From NCBI GenBank assembly GCA_964385825.1, contig CAYLPX010000001.1, positions 8,124 through 72,123 on the forward strand: a DNA stretch of 64,000 nt, in the 5' to 3' direction. Below the pieces are notes generated by a model. That model was not told the origin of the DNA and did no database searches. It saw only the letters and a program-made list of their open reading frames with translations. The translations under genes and the position numbers were made by a program. The DNA is from an uncultured Candidatus Saccharibacteria bacterium (lineage in GTDB: Bacteria; Patescibacteriota; Minisyncoccia; Phycocordibacterales; JAKFXT01). Shown here in pieces: positions 330 through 52,531 of the stretch (the first letter of the stretch is position 1; each line of letters begins with the position of its first letter).

Positions 330-863
330 ATGGTAAAAAGTATTCTAAGCAAACACAAGCAAACACAAAGGGTAGCAGAAGAAGCTCCAATTGAAAATGA
401 AGTAAGAGAGAACCCCCCTGTGTTTAATGATGTGCGCCCATCATCAATCCCCGTACGGAAGAGGGGGCTTATGGCGCGTATTTTTATAACCTTGCGCTAT
501 CTACTTAAGCGCTCCCCTGGCTCCTTGTTGCTAATTCTGCTCTTAATTGGAGCTATTGGTACCTCAGTGTACTTCTATAAGAAAGCAAATCGTGACCCAC
601 AAGCTGATGCTGCAAAGGAATTGCAAGCTACTATAAAGTTAGTGAGTAGACATATGGTGCTGCCAGCGGATGAACAACCAACTCTTGCTACTGTTTCAGA
701 TCCGGCCAAGTTAAAGGATCAAGCTTTTTTCACTCGAGCTGAAAAAGGGGATAAAGTACTACTTTATAGCAAGAGTGGTAAAGCTATTCTCTATAGCATG
801 AAACAAGACAAGATATTGGAAGTTTCTCCATTCAACGTAAACAATGCACCCGCGACCAATTAA
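330..863 (+). CDS. hypothetical single-pass membrane protein
   Basis: ORF track; basic cytoplasmic N-terminus, one TM helix (LLLILLLIGAIGTSVYF), about 100-aa external domain; directly upstream of dockerin/cohesin genes. Confidence 0.5.
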   Translation: MVKSILSKHKQTQRVAEEAPIENEVRENPPVFNDVRPSSIPVRKRGLMARIFITLRYLLKRSPGSLLLILLLIGAIGTSVYFYKKANRDPQADAAKELQATIKLVSRHMVLPADEQPTLATVSDPAKLKDQAFFTRAEKGDKVLLYSKSGKAILYSMKQDKILEVSPFNVNNAPATN

Positions 864-875
864 CATGAGTCCTAC

Positions 876-1679
876 ATGCTGCACGGAGTTCAAAAGATTT
901 TAATTAGTGCAGGAGTTTCGCTACTTTTTGTTACTCCTATTATTTCTTTTGCCGATGATTATACGGGCACTCAGTTTAAAGTAAAAGATCCCGTTATTGC
1001 CCCAGCTGGCTATGCTTCCTCCACAACCTTTCAACTTCAGGGGGTACTTGCGCAACCTTCAATAGGGGAGAGCACCGCTAGTGATTTTGGTGTAAAGACA
1101 GGCTTTTTATACTTCCCATTAGTACGCACGGGAACACTTTCTGCAACACCGGGGGATACCACGGTGGCACTTTCGTGGAGTAGTAGCTCTGGATTTTTGG
1201 GGTGGACGGTCGGTGGATATACGATTGGTAAAAGTACAGTTTCTGGTGGTCCTTATACCTACAGTAGTGTGGGGAATATAACCAGTACGACTATGAGTGG
1301 GCTGACTAACAGTACACCATATTATTTTGTGTTTCGTACGGAGGATTTTTTTGGTAACTATATAGCCACCTCAAGTGAAGTTTCAGCTACACCACTTGGA
1401 GGCACTGGTGGGAGCAATGGTGGTGGATCTAATACTGGAGGGGGAGGTGGTGGGCCACTTATAAATTATGTACCACCGCTTACTAAGCCAGCAGGGGAAT
1501 GTAAAGAAGCTTCAGATCTTAACTGTGATCAGTATATAGATATTGTGGACTTTTCCATTATGTACTACTGGTTCGATAAAGATAATCCACCAACTCGCGT
1601 TGATTTAAATAAAGATGGCAAGGTTGATATCTATGACTTTAGTATCATGGCATATTATTGGCATGAAAAACCACGATAA
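876..1679 (+). CDS. secreted protein: signal peptide + FN3-like domain + Gly-rich linker + C-terminal tandem dockerin (type I-like) module
   Basis: N-terminal signal peptide; FN3-like segment (TVALSWSSS...YYFVFRTEDFFGN); two 22-aa dockerin Ca-binding repeats DLNCDQYIDIVDFSIM and DLNKDGKVDIYDFSIM (D-x-N-x-D-x-x-x-D-x-x-D). Confidence 0.7.
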   Translation: MLHGVQKILISAGVSLLFVTPIISFADDYTGTQFKVKDPVIAPAGYASSTTFQLQGVLAQPSIGESTASDFGVKTGFLYFPLVRTGTLSATPGDTTVALSWSSSSGFLGWTVGGYTIGKSTVSGGPYTYSSVGNITSTTMSGLTNSTPYYFVFRTEDFFGNYIATSSEVSATPLGGTGGSNGGGSNTGGGGGGPLINYVPPLTKPAGECKEASDLNCDQYIDIVDFSIMYYWFDKDNPPTRVDLNKDGKVDIYDFSIMAYYWHEKPR

Positions 1680-50023: not shown

Positions 50024-50106
50024 AGGGGTAGGGATCTCGACTACCGTCGCGGGTGCTTTTCGATCCCTAACATAAAGGTGTCCCACACCTTTACTCCCGC
50101 GGAGCT
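50024..50106 (-). pseudogene. degenerate tRNA-like remnant (partial duplicate of the adjacent tRNA ends)
   Basis: minus-strand reads AGCUCCGCGGGAG...GUAGUCGAGAUCCCUACCCCUCU; first 10 nt and T-arm-like 3' part resemble the adjacent tRNA 5' and 3' ends; acceptor stem does not close. Confidence 0.3.
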
Positions 50107-50111
50107 TAAAA

Positions 50112-50146
50112 ACAAAAACCACTGGCGTAAGCTAGTGGTTTTTGTT
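50112..50146 (-). terminator. terminator hairpin immediately 3' of the tRNA (centre of about 80-nt palindrome)
   Basis: aaaaaCCACTGGcgtaagCTAGTGGtttttgttttttt; flanked by inverted cccgcggagct / agctccgcggg. Confidence 0.55.
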
Positions 50147-50200
50147 TTTTTGTTTTCTTAGCTCCGCGGGTAGGGATCGAACCTACGACCGACTCGTTAC

Positions 50201-50759
50201 ACAAATTCCTCTATTACTAAAGGGGTGGACTATATCATCATCCTTTTCTTTTTCAAGACTATTGGATGCGAGGCGCTTCGACCTTGTAATTTTACAAGGG
50301 CTACTCCCACTAGGGGATAGTCTCTACACCTTCCGAAATGTTTCTATTTCGGCTTGGCTCGGGATTGCCCGCGCTTTCGCACTAGGGTTTCCCCGAGTTC
50401 ACCTCGTTTTTCAACCAAAATTCCTTTTGGAAGCTGCGTGATGCCGCCATGTATTTCTCTATGACAATTTGCACATATCAGAATGCACTTATCAATTTCT
50501 TGCTTGATTTTTTCTCACGATCGCGTAAGTCCTTTTACGGAAAGACCAAAATCTTTTTTCTTTGGATCAAGGTGGTGAAAATCAAGTGCACCTGAATAGC
50601 GCTTATAGCCACAAATCATACATTTACCGCCCTTATACTCACGGGCCATTTCCCGAAGTCTCTTGCGTCGTTCGGAAACAGCTTTTCGTAAGTATTCAGC
50701 ACGGTCAGCATAGGTTCGTTTTTCTGGCATACTTGCTTAAGTATACCACAAACCTCTCC
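50201..50759 (-). mobile_element. group I intron (IC3-like, tRNA-Leu-intron-type core) carrying an HNH ORF in an expanded P1 loop
   Basis: Core matches cyanobacterial tRNA-Leu(UAA) intron: GGGAAACC, GGCAAUCCCGAGCCAAGCCGAAAUAG, UCGGAAGGUGUAGAGACUA, GGGAGUAGCCCU, AUAGUCC; IGS ACGCAGC just before UUCCAAAAGGAA (P2) can pair with exon GCUGU (G.U at splice site); intron ends in G. Confidence 0.65.
50515..50730 (-). CDS. intron-encoded small HNH endonuclease (putative homing endonuclease)
   Basis: 71 aa; ...GGKCMICGYKRYSGALDFHHLDPKKK... HNH signature; lies within intron. Confidence 0.6.
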   Translation of the reverse strand: MPEKRTYADRAEYLRKAVSERRKRLREMAREYKGGKCMICGYKRYSGALDFHHLDPKKKDFGLSVKGLTRS

Positions 50760-50933
50760 ACAGCGAGCTGCTCTACCGCTGAGCTACCGCGGAGCTAAAA
50801 AAACAATACTTTCTAATTTCAAAGTTCTCTTGGAACGGGGTTATAGTAGCAAAAAAAGGCCAGGGAGGCAAAGGTTGTAATGGAGCCCTATGTGGTAAAA
50901 TATGAGAGTATCCACTAGCTAATTGTATTCATT

Positions 50934-51182
50934 ATGCTCACACTTTTTACAAAAACAGGTTGTCCCTACTGCGCTATGGTTATCCACAAATTAGAAGATC
51001 TCGGCCTTTCATGGGAGGAGAAAAATATAGCTAATGATGAGGTAGCAAGTGAGCTTATTTCACTAGGCGGGAAGCGGCAAGTACCATATTTTATAGACCA
51101 TGATCGCGATACAAAAATGTATGAATCGGGTGATATTGTAGATTATCTAGAGCGAACGTTTGGAGGTAAGAAGCAGGGCTAG
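50934..51182 (+). CDS. glutaredoxin-like protein (NrdH/Grx)
   Basis: CPYC active site, about 80 aa thioredoxin fold. Confidence 0.75.
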   Translation: MLTLFTKTGCPYCAMVIHKLEDLGLSWEEKNIANDEVASELISLGGKRQVPYFIDHDRDTKMYESGDIVDYLERTFGGKKQG

Positions 51183-51202
51183 ATTCCTCTAATTTTCACA
51201 TC

Positions 51203-51439
51203 ATGTACGTTAAGGTGCAGGCAGTAACGAAGGCAAAGGAGGAGAAATTGGAAGAAGTAAAACCTCTATATCTGAAAATATGTGTTAGGGAAAAGCCGGA
51301 GCGTAACCTAGCGAACACTCGTATAGTTTCTATGGTAGCCAGTTTTTACGGGGTGGGGGAGGAGAAGGTTCGCATTATCTCTGGCCATCACCATCACTCT
51401 AAAATGCTGAGCATTTCGGTGAAAAAGGATGAGAAGTGA
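51203..51439 (+). CDS. DUF167/YggU (UPF0235) family protein
   Basis: ...KICVREKPERNLANTRIVSMVASFYGVGEEKVRIISGHHHHSKMLSI matches YggU pattern. Confidence 0.5.
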   Translation: MYVKVQAVTKAKEEKLEEVKPLYLKICVREKPERNLANTRIVSMVASFYGVGEEKVRIISGHHHHSKMLSISVKKDEK

Positions 51440-51479
51440 TCGTGATAGAATGTAAGTATTAAAGGCTAACGGTAATCCT

Positions 51480-51845
51480 ATGCGTATACAAACAAAAGCA
51501 ACCAATACTACTCTTACACCAAGTATTGAGAACTATATTGCAAAGAAAGTTGAAGGATTGGAAAGATTGATCAGACAGAGTGATAGCAGTGCTAGTCTTT
51601 CCGTTGAAGTTGCGCGCACAACCGAGCATCATAAAAAGGGAGACATTTTCCGGGCAGAGTTTAACCTCCACACTAAAGAGGGAGATTTCCATGCTGTGTC
51701 AGAACGTAAGGATATTTACACAGCATTAGACGAGGTAAAAGATGAGTTGCTTGATGCCTTTAAAACAAAAAAGGGAAAGAAAATGCGACTTATACGCAAA
51801 GGGCAGTTGAAAGTTAAGGAAGTTGTGCGACAATTCTATCAATAA
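51480..51845 (+). CDS. hpf: ribosome hibernation promoting factor / RaiA (S30AE family)
   Basis: MRIQTKATN...LTPSIENYIAKKVEGLERL...FRAEFNLH typical. Confidence 0.85.
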   Translation: MRIQTKATNTTLTPSIENYIAKKVEGLERLIRQSDSSASLSVEVARTTEHHKKGDIFRAEFNLHTKEGDFHAVSERKDIYTALDEVKDELLDAFKTKKGKKMRLIRKGQLKVKEVVRQFYQ

Positions 51846-51865
51846 TAGCTTAATCCAATTTCTTC

Positions 51866-52531
51866 ATGTTAAAAAGTAAGGTTTCTTTTATTGCTGCATG
51901 GTCCGCTATTGCCGCCGCATCAGCATTCTGTCTTTATACGGCTGGTCTCTTGTATTTTTTCAGTCAGACATTAGTATACGCGGATGACATCACTTATAAA
52001 TCACATGTGGCCTCCGGTCCACTCAAAACATTCACAGGTATGGTTACAGTAGAAACAAATTACGGTACGATTAAGTTTGAATTACTTCCTGCAGATGCAC
52101 CAAACACGGTACAGAACTTTACTCGCCTTGCAACACAGCAATTTTTTGATGGGACACGCTTCCACCGTGTTATTAAGGGCTTTATGATTCAGGGCGGTGA
52201 TCCACAAAGTAAGGACGCATCACTCATAGAACGCTGGGGAACCGGTGGTCCTGGATATGCTTTTGCGGACGAGATTAATAAGGGAAGTGCGCTCTATGCA
52301 AACGGATATCCTCGAGGAACTGTAGCTATGGCTAATTCAGGGCCAAACACTAATGGTAGCCAATTCTTTATCATGCAAGCTGATAATATGTTGCCCCCAC
52401 TTTACACCATCTTTGGTAAGGTAGTTTCTGGACTTGAGGTGGTAGATAAAATTGCATCAGTCAAAACAACTGGTCAACCAAAAGACCGACCACTTACTGA
52501 TGTACTCGTGAAGAAGGTAACAGTGGAGTAA
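51866..52531 (+). CDS. cyclophilin-type peptidyl-prolyl cis-trans isomerase with N-terminal membrane anchor
   Basis: HRVIKGFMIQGGDP, GTVAMANSGPNTNGSQFFI. Confidence 0.9.
   Translation: MLKSKVSFIAAWSAIAAASAFCLYTAGLLYFFSQTLVYADDITYKSHVASGPLKTFTGMVTVETNYGTIKFELLPADAPNTVQNFTRLATQQFFDGTRFHRVIKGFMIQGGDPQSKDASLIERWGTGGPGYAFADEINKGSALYANGYPRGTVAMANSGPNTNGSQFFIMQADNMLPPLYTIFGKVVSGLEVVDKIASVKTTGQPKDRPLTDVLVKKVTVE

What the first reader, a model, noticed from the sequence alone, without database searches (positions are those of the whole stretch)
50162..50793. tRNA gene split by a group I intron carrying an HNH homing-endonuclease ORF
The tRNA halves are about 560 nt apart on the minus strand. The exons reconstruct a canonical cloverleaf with acceptor 7 bp, D 4 bp, anticodon 5 bp and T 5 bp, and a UUCGAUC T-loop. 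The intervening sequence contains the conserved catalytic core of the cyanobacterial/plastid tRNA-Leu(UAA) IC3 intron family (GGGAAACC; GGCAAUCCCGAGCCAAGCCGAAAUAG; UCGGAAGGUGUAGAGACU; GGGAGUAGCCCU; AUAGUCC), a terminal G, and an internal guide able to pair with exon ...GCUGU. The intron also carries a 71-aa HNH ORF (CMICG...FHHLDP) in an expanded P1 loop. With this splice site the host tRNA is Asn(GUU), intron between positions 35/36. An alternative junction would give Thr(UGU). U1:A72 and G73 favour Asn. A group I intron in this tRNA, with an embedded HNH, in a CPR-like genome is uncommon.
Basis: partly seen in the sequence, partly recalled or inferred. Interest (0 to 1): 0.8.

Follow-up and report, generated by a model that had tools for sequence, protein, structure and literature searches.

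The report
Intron-split tRNA-Asn with broken HNH gene
This is a real asparagine tRNA gene interrupted by a self-splicing group I intron that carries a (here inactivated) HNH homing-endonuclease gene, but this arrangement was described and shown to splice in Patescibacteria in 2025-2026, so it is a new example of a known kind.

Summary
On the minus strand, tRNA exons 50793..50760 and 50199..50162 flank a 560-nt group I intron (Rfam RF00028, 70 bits, E 1e-15). Comparison with 76 related introns fixes the splice site at 35/36, giving tRNA-Asn(GUU). The terminal G is conserved 76/76 in that register and 45/76 in the Thr(UGU) register that ARAGORN calls. P2, P3, P4, P5 and P7.1 covary.

The intron has the P7.1/P7.2 helices of subgroup IA, not IC3. 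The "71-aa HNH ORF" is the front of a 127-codon HNH gene cut by one TGG>TGA change (50517..50515). All aligned relatives have Trp there, 74 of 76 relatives are intact, and the TGA recurs in four independent assemblies.

The class is published: Nakagawa et al., mSystems 2026 (PMC13011429). That paper covers 35/36 introns in Patescibacteria tRNA-Asn, in vitro self-splicing, HNH genes in four of them and the ARAGORN Thr miscall. The window's ribozyme is 72% identical to their spliced intron.

Additions here: relatives in at least 553 species genomes, a decaying endonuclease copy, and a conserved promoter-like/hairpin element at the HNH start.

The parts
50760..50793 (-). tRNA-Asn(GUU) 5' exon, positions 1-35, ending C32 U33 G34 U35
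   Evidence: Read directly. The spliced form is called tRNA-Asn(gtt) by ARAGORN. The 5' exon ends in CTGT in all 78 related loci.
50200..50759 (-). Group I intron, 560 nt, subgroup IA architecture, ending in the terminal G (omega-G) at 50200
   Evidence: RF00028 at 70 bits, E 1e-15. The last intron base is G in 76 of 76 unique relatives. Covariation supports the core helices. The MFE fold has z = -5.3. The ribozyme is 72% identical to the experimentally spliced intron of GCA_016700035.1.
50162..50199 (-). tRNA-Asn(GUU) 3' exon, U36 to G73; no CCA is encoded
   Evidence: The 3' exon starts with TAA preceded by G in all relatives. Intronless tRNA-Asn genes are up to 92% identical to the spliced sequence.
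50434..50438 (-). Internal guide sequence, the 3' strand of P1 (CGCAG). It pairs with C32-U33-G34-U35 (U35 with G as a wobble pair) and with the first intron base.
   Evidence: GCAG is invariant in the 64 aligned ribozyme cores and was located in about 70 of the 76 unique introns. Pairing between intron base +1 and the base 5' of GCAG: G-C 55, A-U 5, U-A 1, G-U 2, mismatch 7. The alternative guide GGCGG needed for the Thr junction is not conserved.
50415..50430 (-). P2 hairpin (CCAAAA GGAA UUUUGG)
   Evidence: Five of its 6 pairs show changes on both sides; 97.9% of cells are paired.
50269..50406 (-). P3 (50406..50400 with 50275..50269), enclosing P4 (50397..50391 with 50364..50358), P5/P5a and P6/P6a
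   Evidence: P3 is 98% paired with 4 pairs changed on both sides. P4 is 94-100% paired, with G-C to C-G or U-A swaps in 21-29 sequences. P5 is 95% paired.
50227..50324 (-). P7 (50324..50318 with 50232..50227; the inferred guanosine-binding helix, with a bulged A), enclosing P7.1 (50317..50305), P7.2 (50299..50282), the 3' strand of P3, and P8 (50268..50239)
   Evidence: P7 is invariant in 64 sequences. P7.1 has 3 of 4 pairs changed on both sides. Two hairpins lie between P7 and the 3' strand of P3 in 55 of 61 relatives.
50208..50223 (-). P9 hairpin (CCUUUA GUAA UAGAGG)
   Evidence: Present in the MFE fold. Changes on both sides are seen, but the alignment is poor here and only 62% of cells are paired.
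50515..50730 (-). Truncated HNH ORF, 71 codons plus a TGA stop at 50517..50515
   Evidence: It scores only 13 bits against Pfam HNH. The same 71-aa product is called on 7 contigs, and four loci from four samples (L209-L212) are 100% identical to the window over 409-801 nt.
50347..50730 (-). Ancestral HNH gene, 127 codons if codon 72 were TGG. Its 3' end overlaps the guide sequence and P2 through P6 of the ribozyme.
   Evidence: The read-through translation passes Pfam HNH (26.3 bits) and matches PHROG HNH families (7e-31). All 18 aligned relatives have Trp at codon 72. The tails of relatives (VEKRGEFGET..GQSRAKP) are translations of the P3-P6 core.
50740..50748 (-). TGGTATACT, an element resembling an extended -10 promoter, 9 nt upstream of the HNH ATG. 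Bases 50747..50740 can also pair with 50732..50725 and hide the AUG.
   Evidence: TGGTATA[CA]T or a close variant is present in 63 of 76 introns, with a 9-10 nt spacer in 54. Its function is inferred, not shown.
50108..50149 (-). Terminator-like hairpin downstream of the tRNA (19 pairs, T-runs on both strands)

Best explanation
The locus is a tRNA-Asn(GUU) gene of a Patescibacteria (CPR) bacterium, interrupted between anticodon positions 35 and 36 by a 560-nt self-splicing group I intron of subgroup IA architecture.

**Splicing (inferred from the anatomy and from published experiments on a homologue).**
- The precursor folds so that exon bases C32-U35 and the first intron base pair with the guide sequence CGCAG to form P1, with a U35-G wobble pair at the cleavage site.
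- An external guanosine bound in P7 attacks after U35.
- The terminal G (50200) then takes its place, and the exons are joined to give the CUGUUAA anticodon loop.

**The HNH gene.**
- The roughly 320-nt P1 loop holds an HNH homing-endonuclease gene. Its last codons double as the guide sequence and P2 through P6.
- In relatives this gene is intact and under purifying selection. It presumably cuts intronless tRNA-Asn genes so that the intron is copied in during repair.
- In this organism a single TGG>TGA change at codon 72 removes the second half of the catalytic and zinc-binding motif.
- So the endonuclease is most likely dead and recently inactivated, while the ribozyme, which the cell needs to make tRNA-Asn, is intact.
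For: **Intron.** RF00028 scores 70 bits against a cut-off of 50. Homologous loci score 59-73 bits.

**Structure.**
- Across 64 related cores, 92.2% of cells are paired, against 78.6% in shuffles and 33-51% with slid partners.
- 362 cells show changes on both sides, against 112 in shuffles.
- The MFE fold reproduces the same helices.

**Splice site.**
- The terminal G is conserved 76/76 in the Asn register and 45/76 in the Thr register.
- The exon always ends in CTGT, and GCAG of the guide is invariant in the 64 aligned ribozyme cores.
- The +1/-1 pair of P1 covaries.

**tRNA identity.**
It returned 99 Asn, 22 Lys and 1 Thr.
- Intronless tRNA-Asn genes are up to 92% identical to the spliced product.
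- One (L143) is identical to the spliced exons of L003, L008 and L009.

**Experiment on a homologue.** The intron of GCA_016700035.1 is 72% identical over 213 aligned columns. It self-splices at 35/36 in vitro, and a G-to-C change of the terminal G blocks exon ligation (PMC13011429).

**HNH gene.**
- The read-through protein passes Pfam HNH and PHROG HNH families.
- It has 2875 relatives, and all 18 aligned ones have Trp at codon 72.
- 74 of 76 relatives are intact.
- TGA is a genuine stop in this genome: 5 long ORFs end in TGA, with only 5-35 codons to the next stop.
- The TGA is present in four independent assemblies.
Against: - No RNA data exist for this organism, so splicing of this particular copy is inferred.
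- P1 has only about 5 pairs, and no P10 pairing is evident.
- The HNH frame has no lesion other than the TGA. All 7 codon differences from the closest intact relative downstream of the stop are synonymous. Low-level UGA read-through giving a working enzyme therefore cannot be excluded.
- The loci used to estimate how many copies are intact were selected by protein similarity, which favours intact copies.
Confidence: 0.87

Rival explanations
1. The host gene is tRNA-Thr(UGU), with the intron between positions 33 and 34. The 5' exon would end ...GCUCGCU and the 3' exon would start UGUAACGAG.
For: ARAGORN with intron search calls exactly this for the window and for about half of the related loci. 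In the window a G precedes UGUAA, and a GGCGG stretch could pair with exon UCGCU.
Against: - The base that would be the terminal G in this register is G in only 45 of 76 relatives, against 76 of 76 in the Asn register.
- GGCGG lies in a variable coding stretch and is not conserved (GCCGG, GATGG, GCAGG in relatives).
- Intronless tRNAs with this body are Asn 99 to Thr 1.
- The same ARAGORN and tFind miscall is documented. For a homologue, the 35/36 junction was confirmed by sequencing the spliced product.
Confidence: 0.02
2. The HNH gene is still functional. The in-frame UGA is read through at low frequency, for example by near-cognate tRNA-Trp. That would give a deliberately low dose of a potentially toxic endonuclease.
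For: - The stop is a single transition from the conserved Trp codon.
- The downstream frame is open for 55 more codons and keeps every conserved HNH residue.
- All 7 differences from the closest relative downstream of the stop are synonymous.
- The allele is fixed in four assemblies.
- UGA is the rarest stop in the window, closing 5 of 59 long ORFs.
Against: - 74 of 76 relatives use a plain TGG and need no such device.
- The synonymous-only pattern is equally expected if the stop is recent, since most of the divergence from L001 would predate it.
- TGA works as a normal stop in the same genome.
- No read-through context or structure was identified.
Confidence: 0.1
3. The intron-containing copy is a dead tRNA pseudogene, disabled by a mobile element that no longer splices.
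For: The endonuclease gene is broken, so the element shows some decay. Default tRNA finders see no tRNA here.
Against: - Every core helix and all invariant P7 and J8/7 bases are intact in the window.
- The exons form a perfect cloverleaf.
- The locus is syntenic with intron-containing tRNA-Asn genes in many lineages.
- The published survey reports that such genes are usually the only copy for their anticodon.
Confidence: 0.03

Closest known systems
Group I introns at position 35/36 of tRNA-Asn(GUU) in Patescibacteria (Nakagawa, Amikura, Omae, Suzuki; mSystems 2026, PMC13011429; preprint 10.1101/2025.07.03.662931)
   Same: - Same host tRNA, same 35/36 insertion site and same CUGU|UAA junction.
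- Same ARAGORN miscall as Thr(UGU) 33/34.
- The ribozyme is 72% identical to their in vitro-spliced intron (GCA_016700035.1) and 76% identical to their endonuclease-free Paceibacteria intron (GCA_016699245.1).
- The HNH protein is 58-68% identical to the three HNH ORFs readable in their Table S3.
   Different: - This copy's HNH gene carries a premature TGA.
- The paper found HNH genes in only 4 tRNA-Asn introns among 95 complete genomes and stresses low endonuclease prevalence and limited horizontal transfer.
- Here, relatives of the HNH-bearing form turn up in at least 553 species-representative genomes and 2875 protein clusters.
Cyanobacterial/plastid tRNA-Leu(UAA) and Azoarcus tRNA-Ile group I introns (subgroup IC3)
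   Same: - Self-splicing intron in a bacterial tRNA anticodon loop.
- Short P1.
- Very similar P4/P6/J6-7/P7 sequence motifs (GGCAAUCCNGAGCCAAG, AGGUGNAGAGACU). The comparison with IC3 sequences is from memory of those introns, not tested here.
   Different: - Different tRNA and insertion site (34/35 or 36/37).
- IC3 introns lack P7.1 and P7.2, which this intron and its relatives have.
- The published classification puts the Patescibacteria introns in IA and none in IC.
I-Ssp6803I in the Synechocystis tRNA-fMet group I intron
   Same: A homing endonuclease encoded inside a bacterial tRNA group I intron that targets the anticodon region of the intronless gene. This rests on general knowledge; the published survey lists PD-(D/E)XK endonuclease genes in cyanobacterial tRNA-fMet introns.
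   Different: PD-(D/E)XK fold rather than HNH, a different tRNA and a different insertion site (33/34).
Phage T4 td/nrdB/sunY introns (subgroup IA) with their endonuclease genes
   Same: Subgroup IA architecture with P7.1 and P7.2, and an endonuclease ORF looped out of the ribozyme. The T4 endonuclease genes have their own promoters, and a hairpin hides the translation start in read-through transcripts (general knowledge). The conserved TGGTATACT-N9-ATG element here could play both roles.
   Different: The host genes are protein-coding and the endonucleases are GIY-YIG or other types. The regulatory parallel is a hypothesis only.

Membership tests
Group I intron (Rfam RF00028) | Covariance-model score at or above the curated gathering score | tested here: met
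   70 bits against 50, E 1e-15, covering the full model 1-253.
Group I intron (Rfam RF00028) | Conserved P3-P9 core helices, including the P3/P7 pseudoknot, supported by compensatory changes | tested here: met
   92.2% of cells are paired. 24 of 41 pairs show changes on both sides. Shuffled and slid controls are far lower. P7 is invariant.
Group I intron (Rfam RF00028) | [quoted passage not shown] | tested here: met
   The exon ends CUGU. The guide GCAG is invariant in the 64 aligned ribozyme cores and places G opposite U35. The terminal G is conserved 76/76.
Group I intron (Rfam RF00028) | Guanosine-dependent self-splicing | not testable with these tools
   Shown in vitro for a homologue that is 72% identical in the ribozyme (PMC13011429). 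Not shown for this copy.
Patescibacteria tRNA-Asn(GUU) 35/36 intron class (PMC13011429) | Host gene is tRNA-Asn(GUU), with the intron between positions 35 and 36 | tested here: met
Patescibacteria tRNA-Asn(GUU) 35/36 intron class (PMC13011429) | Sequence homology to published members | tested here: met
   Ribozyme 72% and 76% identical. HNH 58-68% identical to three published intron ORFs.
Patescibacteria tRNA-Asn(GUU) 35/36 intron class (PMC13011429) | Host is a member of Patescibacteria | tested here: inconclusive
   The window's own taxonomy was not determined. The closest loci and syntenic neighbours come from MAGs labelled Paceibacterota, Parcubacteria and other Patescibacteria.
Group I intron subgroup IC3 | Compact core with no extra helices between P7 and the 3' strand of P3 | tested here: not met
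   A 39-nt segment forms two hairpins, P7.1 and P7.2. This holds in 55 of 61 relatives, and P7.1 covaries.
Group I intron subgroup IA | P7.1 and P7.2 between P7 and the 3' strand of P3 (the Michel and Westhof criterion, from general knowledge) | tested here: met
   The published subgroup covariance models class 25 of 28 introns at 35/36 as IA. Those subgroup models were not run here.
HNH endonuclease (Pfam PF01844) | Domain score at or above the Pfam cut-off | tested here: inconclusive
   The 71-aa ORF as encoded scores 13 bits (cut-off 21.4), so not met. The read-through translation scores 26.3 bits, so met. PHROG HNH families match at 7e-31.
HNH endonuclease (Pfam PF01844) | Complete catalytic/zinc motif in one open frame (CxxC ... 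HH ... N ... CxxC-H) | tested here: not met
   The TGA at codon 72 separates C37/C40/H52-H53 from C86/N88/C89/H90/H94. The stop is reproduced in four assemblies.
Homing endonuclease (functional definition) | Cleaves the intronless allele and promotes intron insertion | not testable with these tools
   Only indirect support. Intronless alleles with identical exons exist (L143). Relatives are 74 of 76 intact, with mostly synonymous change.
tRNA-Thr(UGU) with a 33/34 intron (ARAGORN call) | Terminal G and guide pairing conserved in that register, and intronless homologues that are tRNA-Thr | tested here: not met
   G in 45 of 76 relatives. The candidate guide is not conserved. Intronless homologues are 99 Asn to 1 Thr.

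The most novel reading that the evidence does not exclude
The HNH-bearing form of this intron may be an actively homing element that moves between divergent Patescibacteria lineages. That would contrast with the published inference that tRNA introns in this phylum have limited mobility.

Observations pointing that way:
- Relatives are found in at least 553 species genomes, and 74 of 76 copies examined are intact.
- The endonuclease is 65-95% identical across loci whose neighbouring host proteins are only 27-60% identical.
- Intronless alleles with identical exons exist.
- One contig (L212) has a 100% identical exon-plus-intron next to flanking genes only about 70% identical.

In the same reading, the conserved TGGTATACT-N9-AUG element would be an internal promoter and/or a hairpin hiding the start codon. 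It would keep endonuclease expression separate from ribozyme folding. The window would then capture the decay phase of the homing cycle.
Probability: 0.4. Interest if true: 0.45.

Novelty: new member of a known kind. Interest (0 to 1): 0.25.

Why it matters
**Annotation.** Default tRNA finders miss this gene entirely, and intron-aware ARAGORN names it tRNA-Thr. A genome like this would therefore be scored as lacking tRNA-Asn. That problem and its remedy are already published.

**What this locus adds is modest:**
- a naturally inactivated endonuclease inside an intact ribozyme, which is a snapshot of homing-endonuclease decay;
- evidence that the HNH-carrying form is far more widespread in draft genomes and metagenomes than the four cases found in complete genomes;
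- a conserved candidate regulatory element at the endonuclease start that could be tested.

Tried and rejected
1. **Alternative genetic code (UGA as Trp or Gly).** Rejected. Removing TGA as a stop lengthens ORFs no more than removing TAA or TAG does. Long ORFs that end in TGA run only 5-35 codons further if read through.

2. **TGA as a sequencing error.** Rejected. The same sequence appears in four independent assemblies.

3. **Thr(UGU) junction.** Rejected.

4. **A fifth exon pair in P1 (N31 with the base after GCAG).** No covariation was found. P1 instead extends one pair into the intron.

5. **IC3 assignment.** Rejected on the presence of P7.1 and P7.2.

6. **P9 covariation.** Inconclusive. 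The MAFFT alignment is shifted there and only 62% of cells are paired.

7. **Paper supplement searched for HNH/PF01844.** Nothing found in the stored part. The sequences of Table S3 were used instead.

8. **First check of HNH intactness.** It wrongly flagged 22 loci because a start-codon regex hit an internal out-of-frame ATGCCG. Redone with motif-anchored frames.

9. **NCBIfam.** No meaningful family match.

10. **Conserved synteny at intronless tRNA-Asn loci.** Only L162 showed an S30AE neighbour.

11. **Not attempted.** No structure prediction of the HNH protein was made, because domain assignment by sequence was sufficient.

Full report
**1. What is there**

On the minus strand the sequence reads as follows.
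- 5' exon: TCCGCGGTAGCTCAGCGGTAGAGCAGCTCGCTGT (50793..50760).
- Intron: 560 nt (50759..50200).
- 3' exon: TAACGAGTCGGTCGTAGGTTCGATCCCTACCCGCGGAG (50199..50162).

ARAGORN in default mode finds no tRNA anywhere in the window. Once the exons are joined, it calls a canonical 73-nt tRNA.

Rfam's group I intron model is the only family to reach its gathering score in the 64 kb: 50492..50207, 70 bits against 50, E 1e-15.

**2. Which tRNA, and where is the splice site**

Two junctions give a 7-nt anticodon loop.
- CUGU|UAA gives Asn(GUU), with the intron at 35/36.
- CU|UGUAA gives Thr(UGU), with the intron at 33/34. ARAGORN with intron search chooses this one.

I collected relatives through the intron-encoded protein. 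In 78 of the 87 sequences examined (86 loci and the window) the protein gene lies inside a split tRNA. Among the 76 unique introns:
- the 5' exon always ends in CTGT and the 3' exon always starts with TAA;
- the last intron base in the Asn register is G in 76 of 76;
- the base that would be terminal in the Thr register is G in only 45 of 76.

The guide sequence GCAG pairs with C32-U35 and places G opposite U35. It is invariant in the 64 aligned ribozyme cores. The pair between the first intron base and the base 5' of GCAG covaries: G-C 55, A-U 5, U-A 1, G-U 2, mismatch 7. The alternative guide needed for the Thr junction lies in variable coding sequence and is not conserved.

As an independent test I scanned metagenome contigs for this tRNA body while allowing the anticodons GTT, TGT, GGT and TTT. 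The scan returned 99 Asn, 22 Lys and 1 Thr. Intronless tRNA-Asn genes are up to 92% identical to the spliced window tRNA. One of them (L143) is identical to the spliced exons of three intron-containing loci. Another (L162) lies next to an S30AE gene, as the window's tRNA does.

The gene is tRNA-Asn(GUU), with the intron at 35/36.

**3. The ribozyme**

I aligned 64 ribozyme cores and tested a hand-drawn structure on the alignment.
- 92.2% of cells are paired, against 78.6% in shuffles and 33-51% when the 3' partners are slid.
- 362 cells show changes on both sides, against 112 in shuffles.
- P2, P3, P4, P5 and P7.1 each have several pairs with compensatory changes.
- P7 is invariant.

The minimum-free-energy fold of the window's 244-nt core reproduces P2, P3, P4, P5/P5a, P6/P6a, P7.1, P7.2, P8 and P9, with z = -5.3.

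Between the 5' strand of P7 and the 3' strand of P3 there are two hairpins, in 55 of 61 relatives. By the classical criterion (general knowledge), P7.1 and P7.2 at this position define subgroup IA. IC3 introns lack them.

**4. The HNH gene**

The 71-codon ORF (50730..50515) ends at a TGA. The same frame continues with EKIKQEIDKCILICANCHREIHGG, which is the second half of an HNH motif.
- Only the read-through translation passes Pfam HNH: 26.3 bits against 13 for the 71-aa ORF, with a cut-off of 21.4.
- The read-through protein has 2875 relatives at E<=0.001. The 120 best listed are 68-96% identical to it, and the named ones come from Patescibacteria.
- All 18 aligned relatives have Trp at codon 72.
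- 74 of 76 related introns carry an uninterrupted gene. Only the window and L082 are broken.

The genome uses the standard code. The TGA is present in four independent assemblies that are 100% identical to the window. It is therefore a real, fixed nonsense mutation.

Against the closest intact relative (L001), 25 codon differences are synonymous and 6 are not. That indicates purifying selection until recently.

The ancestral gene (127 codons, 50730..50347) starts in the P1 loop and runs through the guide sequence and P2 to P6. This is why the C-terminal tails of relatives (ITQLP...VEKRGEFGET...GQSRAKP) are conserved: they are translations of the ribozyme core. Endonuclease-free published relatives have P1 loops of only about 5-28 nt. 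This confirms that the HNH gene is an insertion in L1.

The closest solved relative by sequence is the HNH domain of a group II intron maturase (6me0, E 5e-4).

**5. Comparison with what is known**

[quoted passage not shown] It reports:
- the same ARAGORN and tFind miscall as Thr(UGU) 33/34;
- in vitro self-splicing, with the ligated product sequenced and a terminal-G mutant as control;
- subgroup IA classification;
- HNH (PF01844) genes in four tRNA-Asn introns.

Using the sequences in their Table S3, I compared the window directly.
- The ribozyme is 72% identical to the experimentally spliced intron.
- It is 76% identical to an endonuclease-free Paceibacteria intron.
- The HNH protein is 58-68% identical to three of their intron ORFs.

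The window's element is a member of this published class.

**6. What goes beyond the paper (incremental)**

(a) Prevalence. The best 80 span many Patescibacteria lineages.

(b) Conservation. The endonuclease is 65-95% identical to the window's copy (median 71.5%). Neighbouring host proteins in the same loci are only 27-60% identical, apart from L001, the closest relative. The upstream gene order (glutaredoxin, PF1765-like, S30AE, PPIase) is shared with several loci. The contrast fits continuing selection for endonuclease function, and so homing, but strong constraint alone is not excluded.

(c) Decay. This copy shows the decay phase of the cycle.

(d) A conserved element at the HNH start. TGGTATA[C/A]T, which resembles an extended -10 promoter, lies 9-10 nt upstream of the HNH start in most introns. 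The same bases can pair with the start codon region (GGUAUACU with AGUAUGCC). Whether it is a promoter, a translational hairpin or both is untested.

**7. Verdict**

The finding is real and the core interpretation is correct. The subgroup and the state of the ORF need correcting. The phenomenon is already described and experimentally validated, so interest is low to moderate.

Noticed in passing
window 50740..50748 (-), with 50725..50732 (-): TGGTATACT, which resembles an extended -10 promoter, lies exactly 9 nt upstream of the HNH ATG. It or a close variant (TGGTATAAT and others) is present in 63 of 76 related introns, with a 9-10 nt spacer in 54. There is no Shine-Dalgarno sequence in between. 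The same bases can form a hairpin (GGUAUACU with AGUAUGCC) that would bury the AUG. In a few relatives the changes are compensatory (TATAAT together with TT-ATG), and in others they are not.
   Followed up: partly
L212 (logan SRR23702464_657705), 701..1109, compared with window 50385..50793: In this contig the tRNA 5' exon and 375 nt of intron (409 nt in all, to the contig end, including the TGA) are 100% identical to the window. The upstream spacer has diverged, and the flanking glutaredoxin and PF1765-like proteins are only 72% and 70% identical. This is either recent lateral transfer of the intron between lineages or a chimeric short contig.
   Followed up: partly
window 50096..50106 and 50160..50170; terminator-like hairpin 50108..50149: An 11-bp inverted repeat (CCCGCGGAGCT / AGCTCCGCGGG) brackets the terminator hairpin just downstream of the tRNA. 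One arm is the tRNA's own 3' acceptor strand plus two trailer bases. In the transcript, the trailer could therefore compete with acceptor-stem formation.
   Followed up: no
window 50028..50106 (-): A stretch of about 79 nt downstream of the terminator begins with an exact copy of the tRNA's 5' end and leader (AGCTCCGCGG, also at 50796..50787). It ends in a T-arm-like hairpin (GTAG TCGAGATC CCTAC, 50044..50028). Neither ARAGORN nor Rfam calls anything there. It may be a degenerate tRNA remnant, or it may be chance.
   Followed up: no
window 50934..52531 (+); L001, L004, L006, L209: The divergently transcribed neighbours are glutaredoxin, a PF1765-like protein, ribosome hibernation factor S30AE and peptidyl-prolyl isomerase. 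This gene order recurs next to the intron-containing tRNA-Asn in several distinct lineages. The neighbour proteins are much less conserved than the intron's HNH protein.
   Followed up: partly
L003 1794..2128; also L022 and L082: Some relatives carry extra insertions of 80-150 nt in the P6 or P7.2/P8 regions of the ribozyme. The inserts in L003 and L022 share a GGGGTCCCCATTCTTATGGGGGA-like hairpin. These may be small secondary mobile insertions.
   Followed up: no
whole window: TGA is the rarest stop codon, closing 5 of 59 long ORFs. No other tRNA gene or Rfam family is detected in the 64 kb.
   Followed up: yes
L029, L038, L041, L086, L018 (record titles): A few loci with this Patescibacteria-type intron and HNH gene sit in MAGs labelled Burkholderiales, Gammaproteobacteria, Pseudomonadales or Methylomirabilota. 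These are probably binning or labelling errors rather than true hosts, but this was not checked.
   Followed up: no
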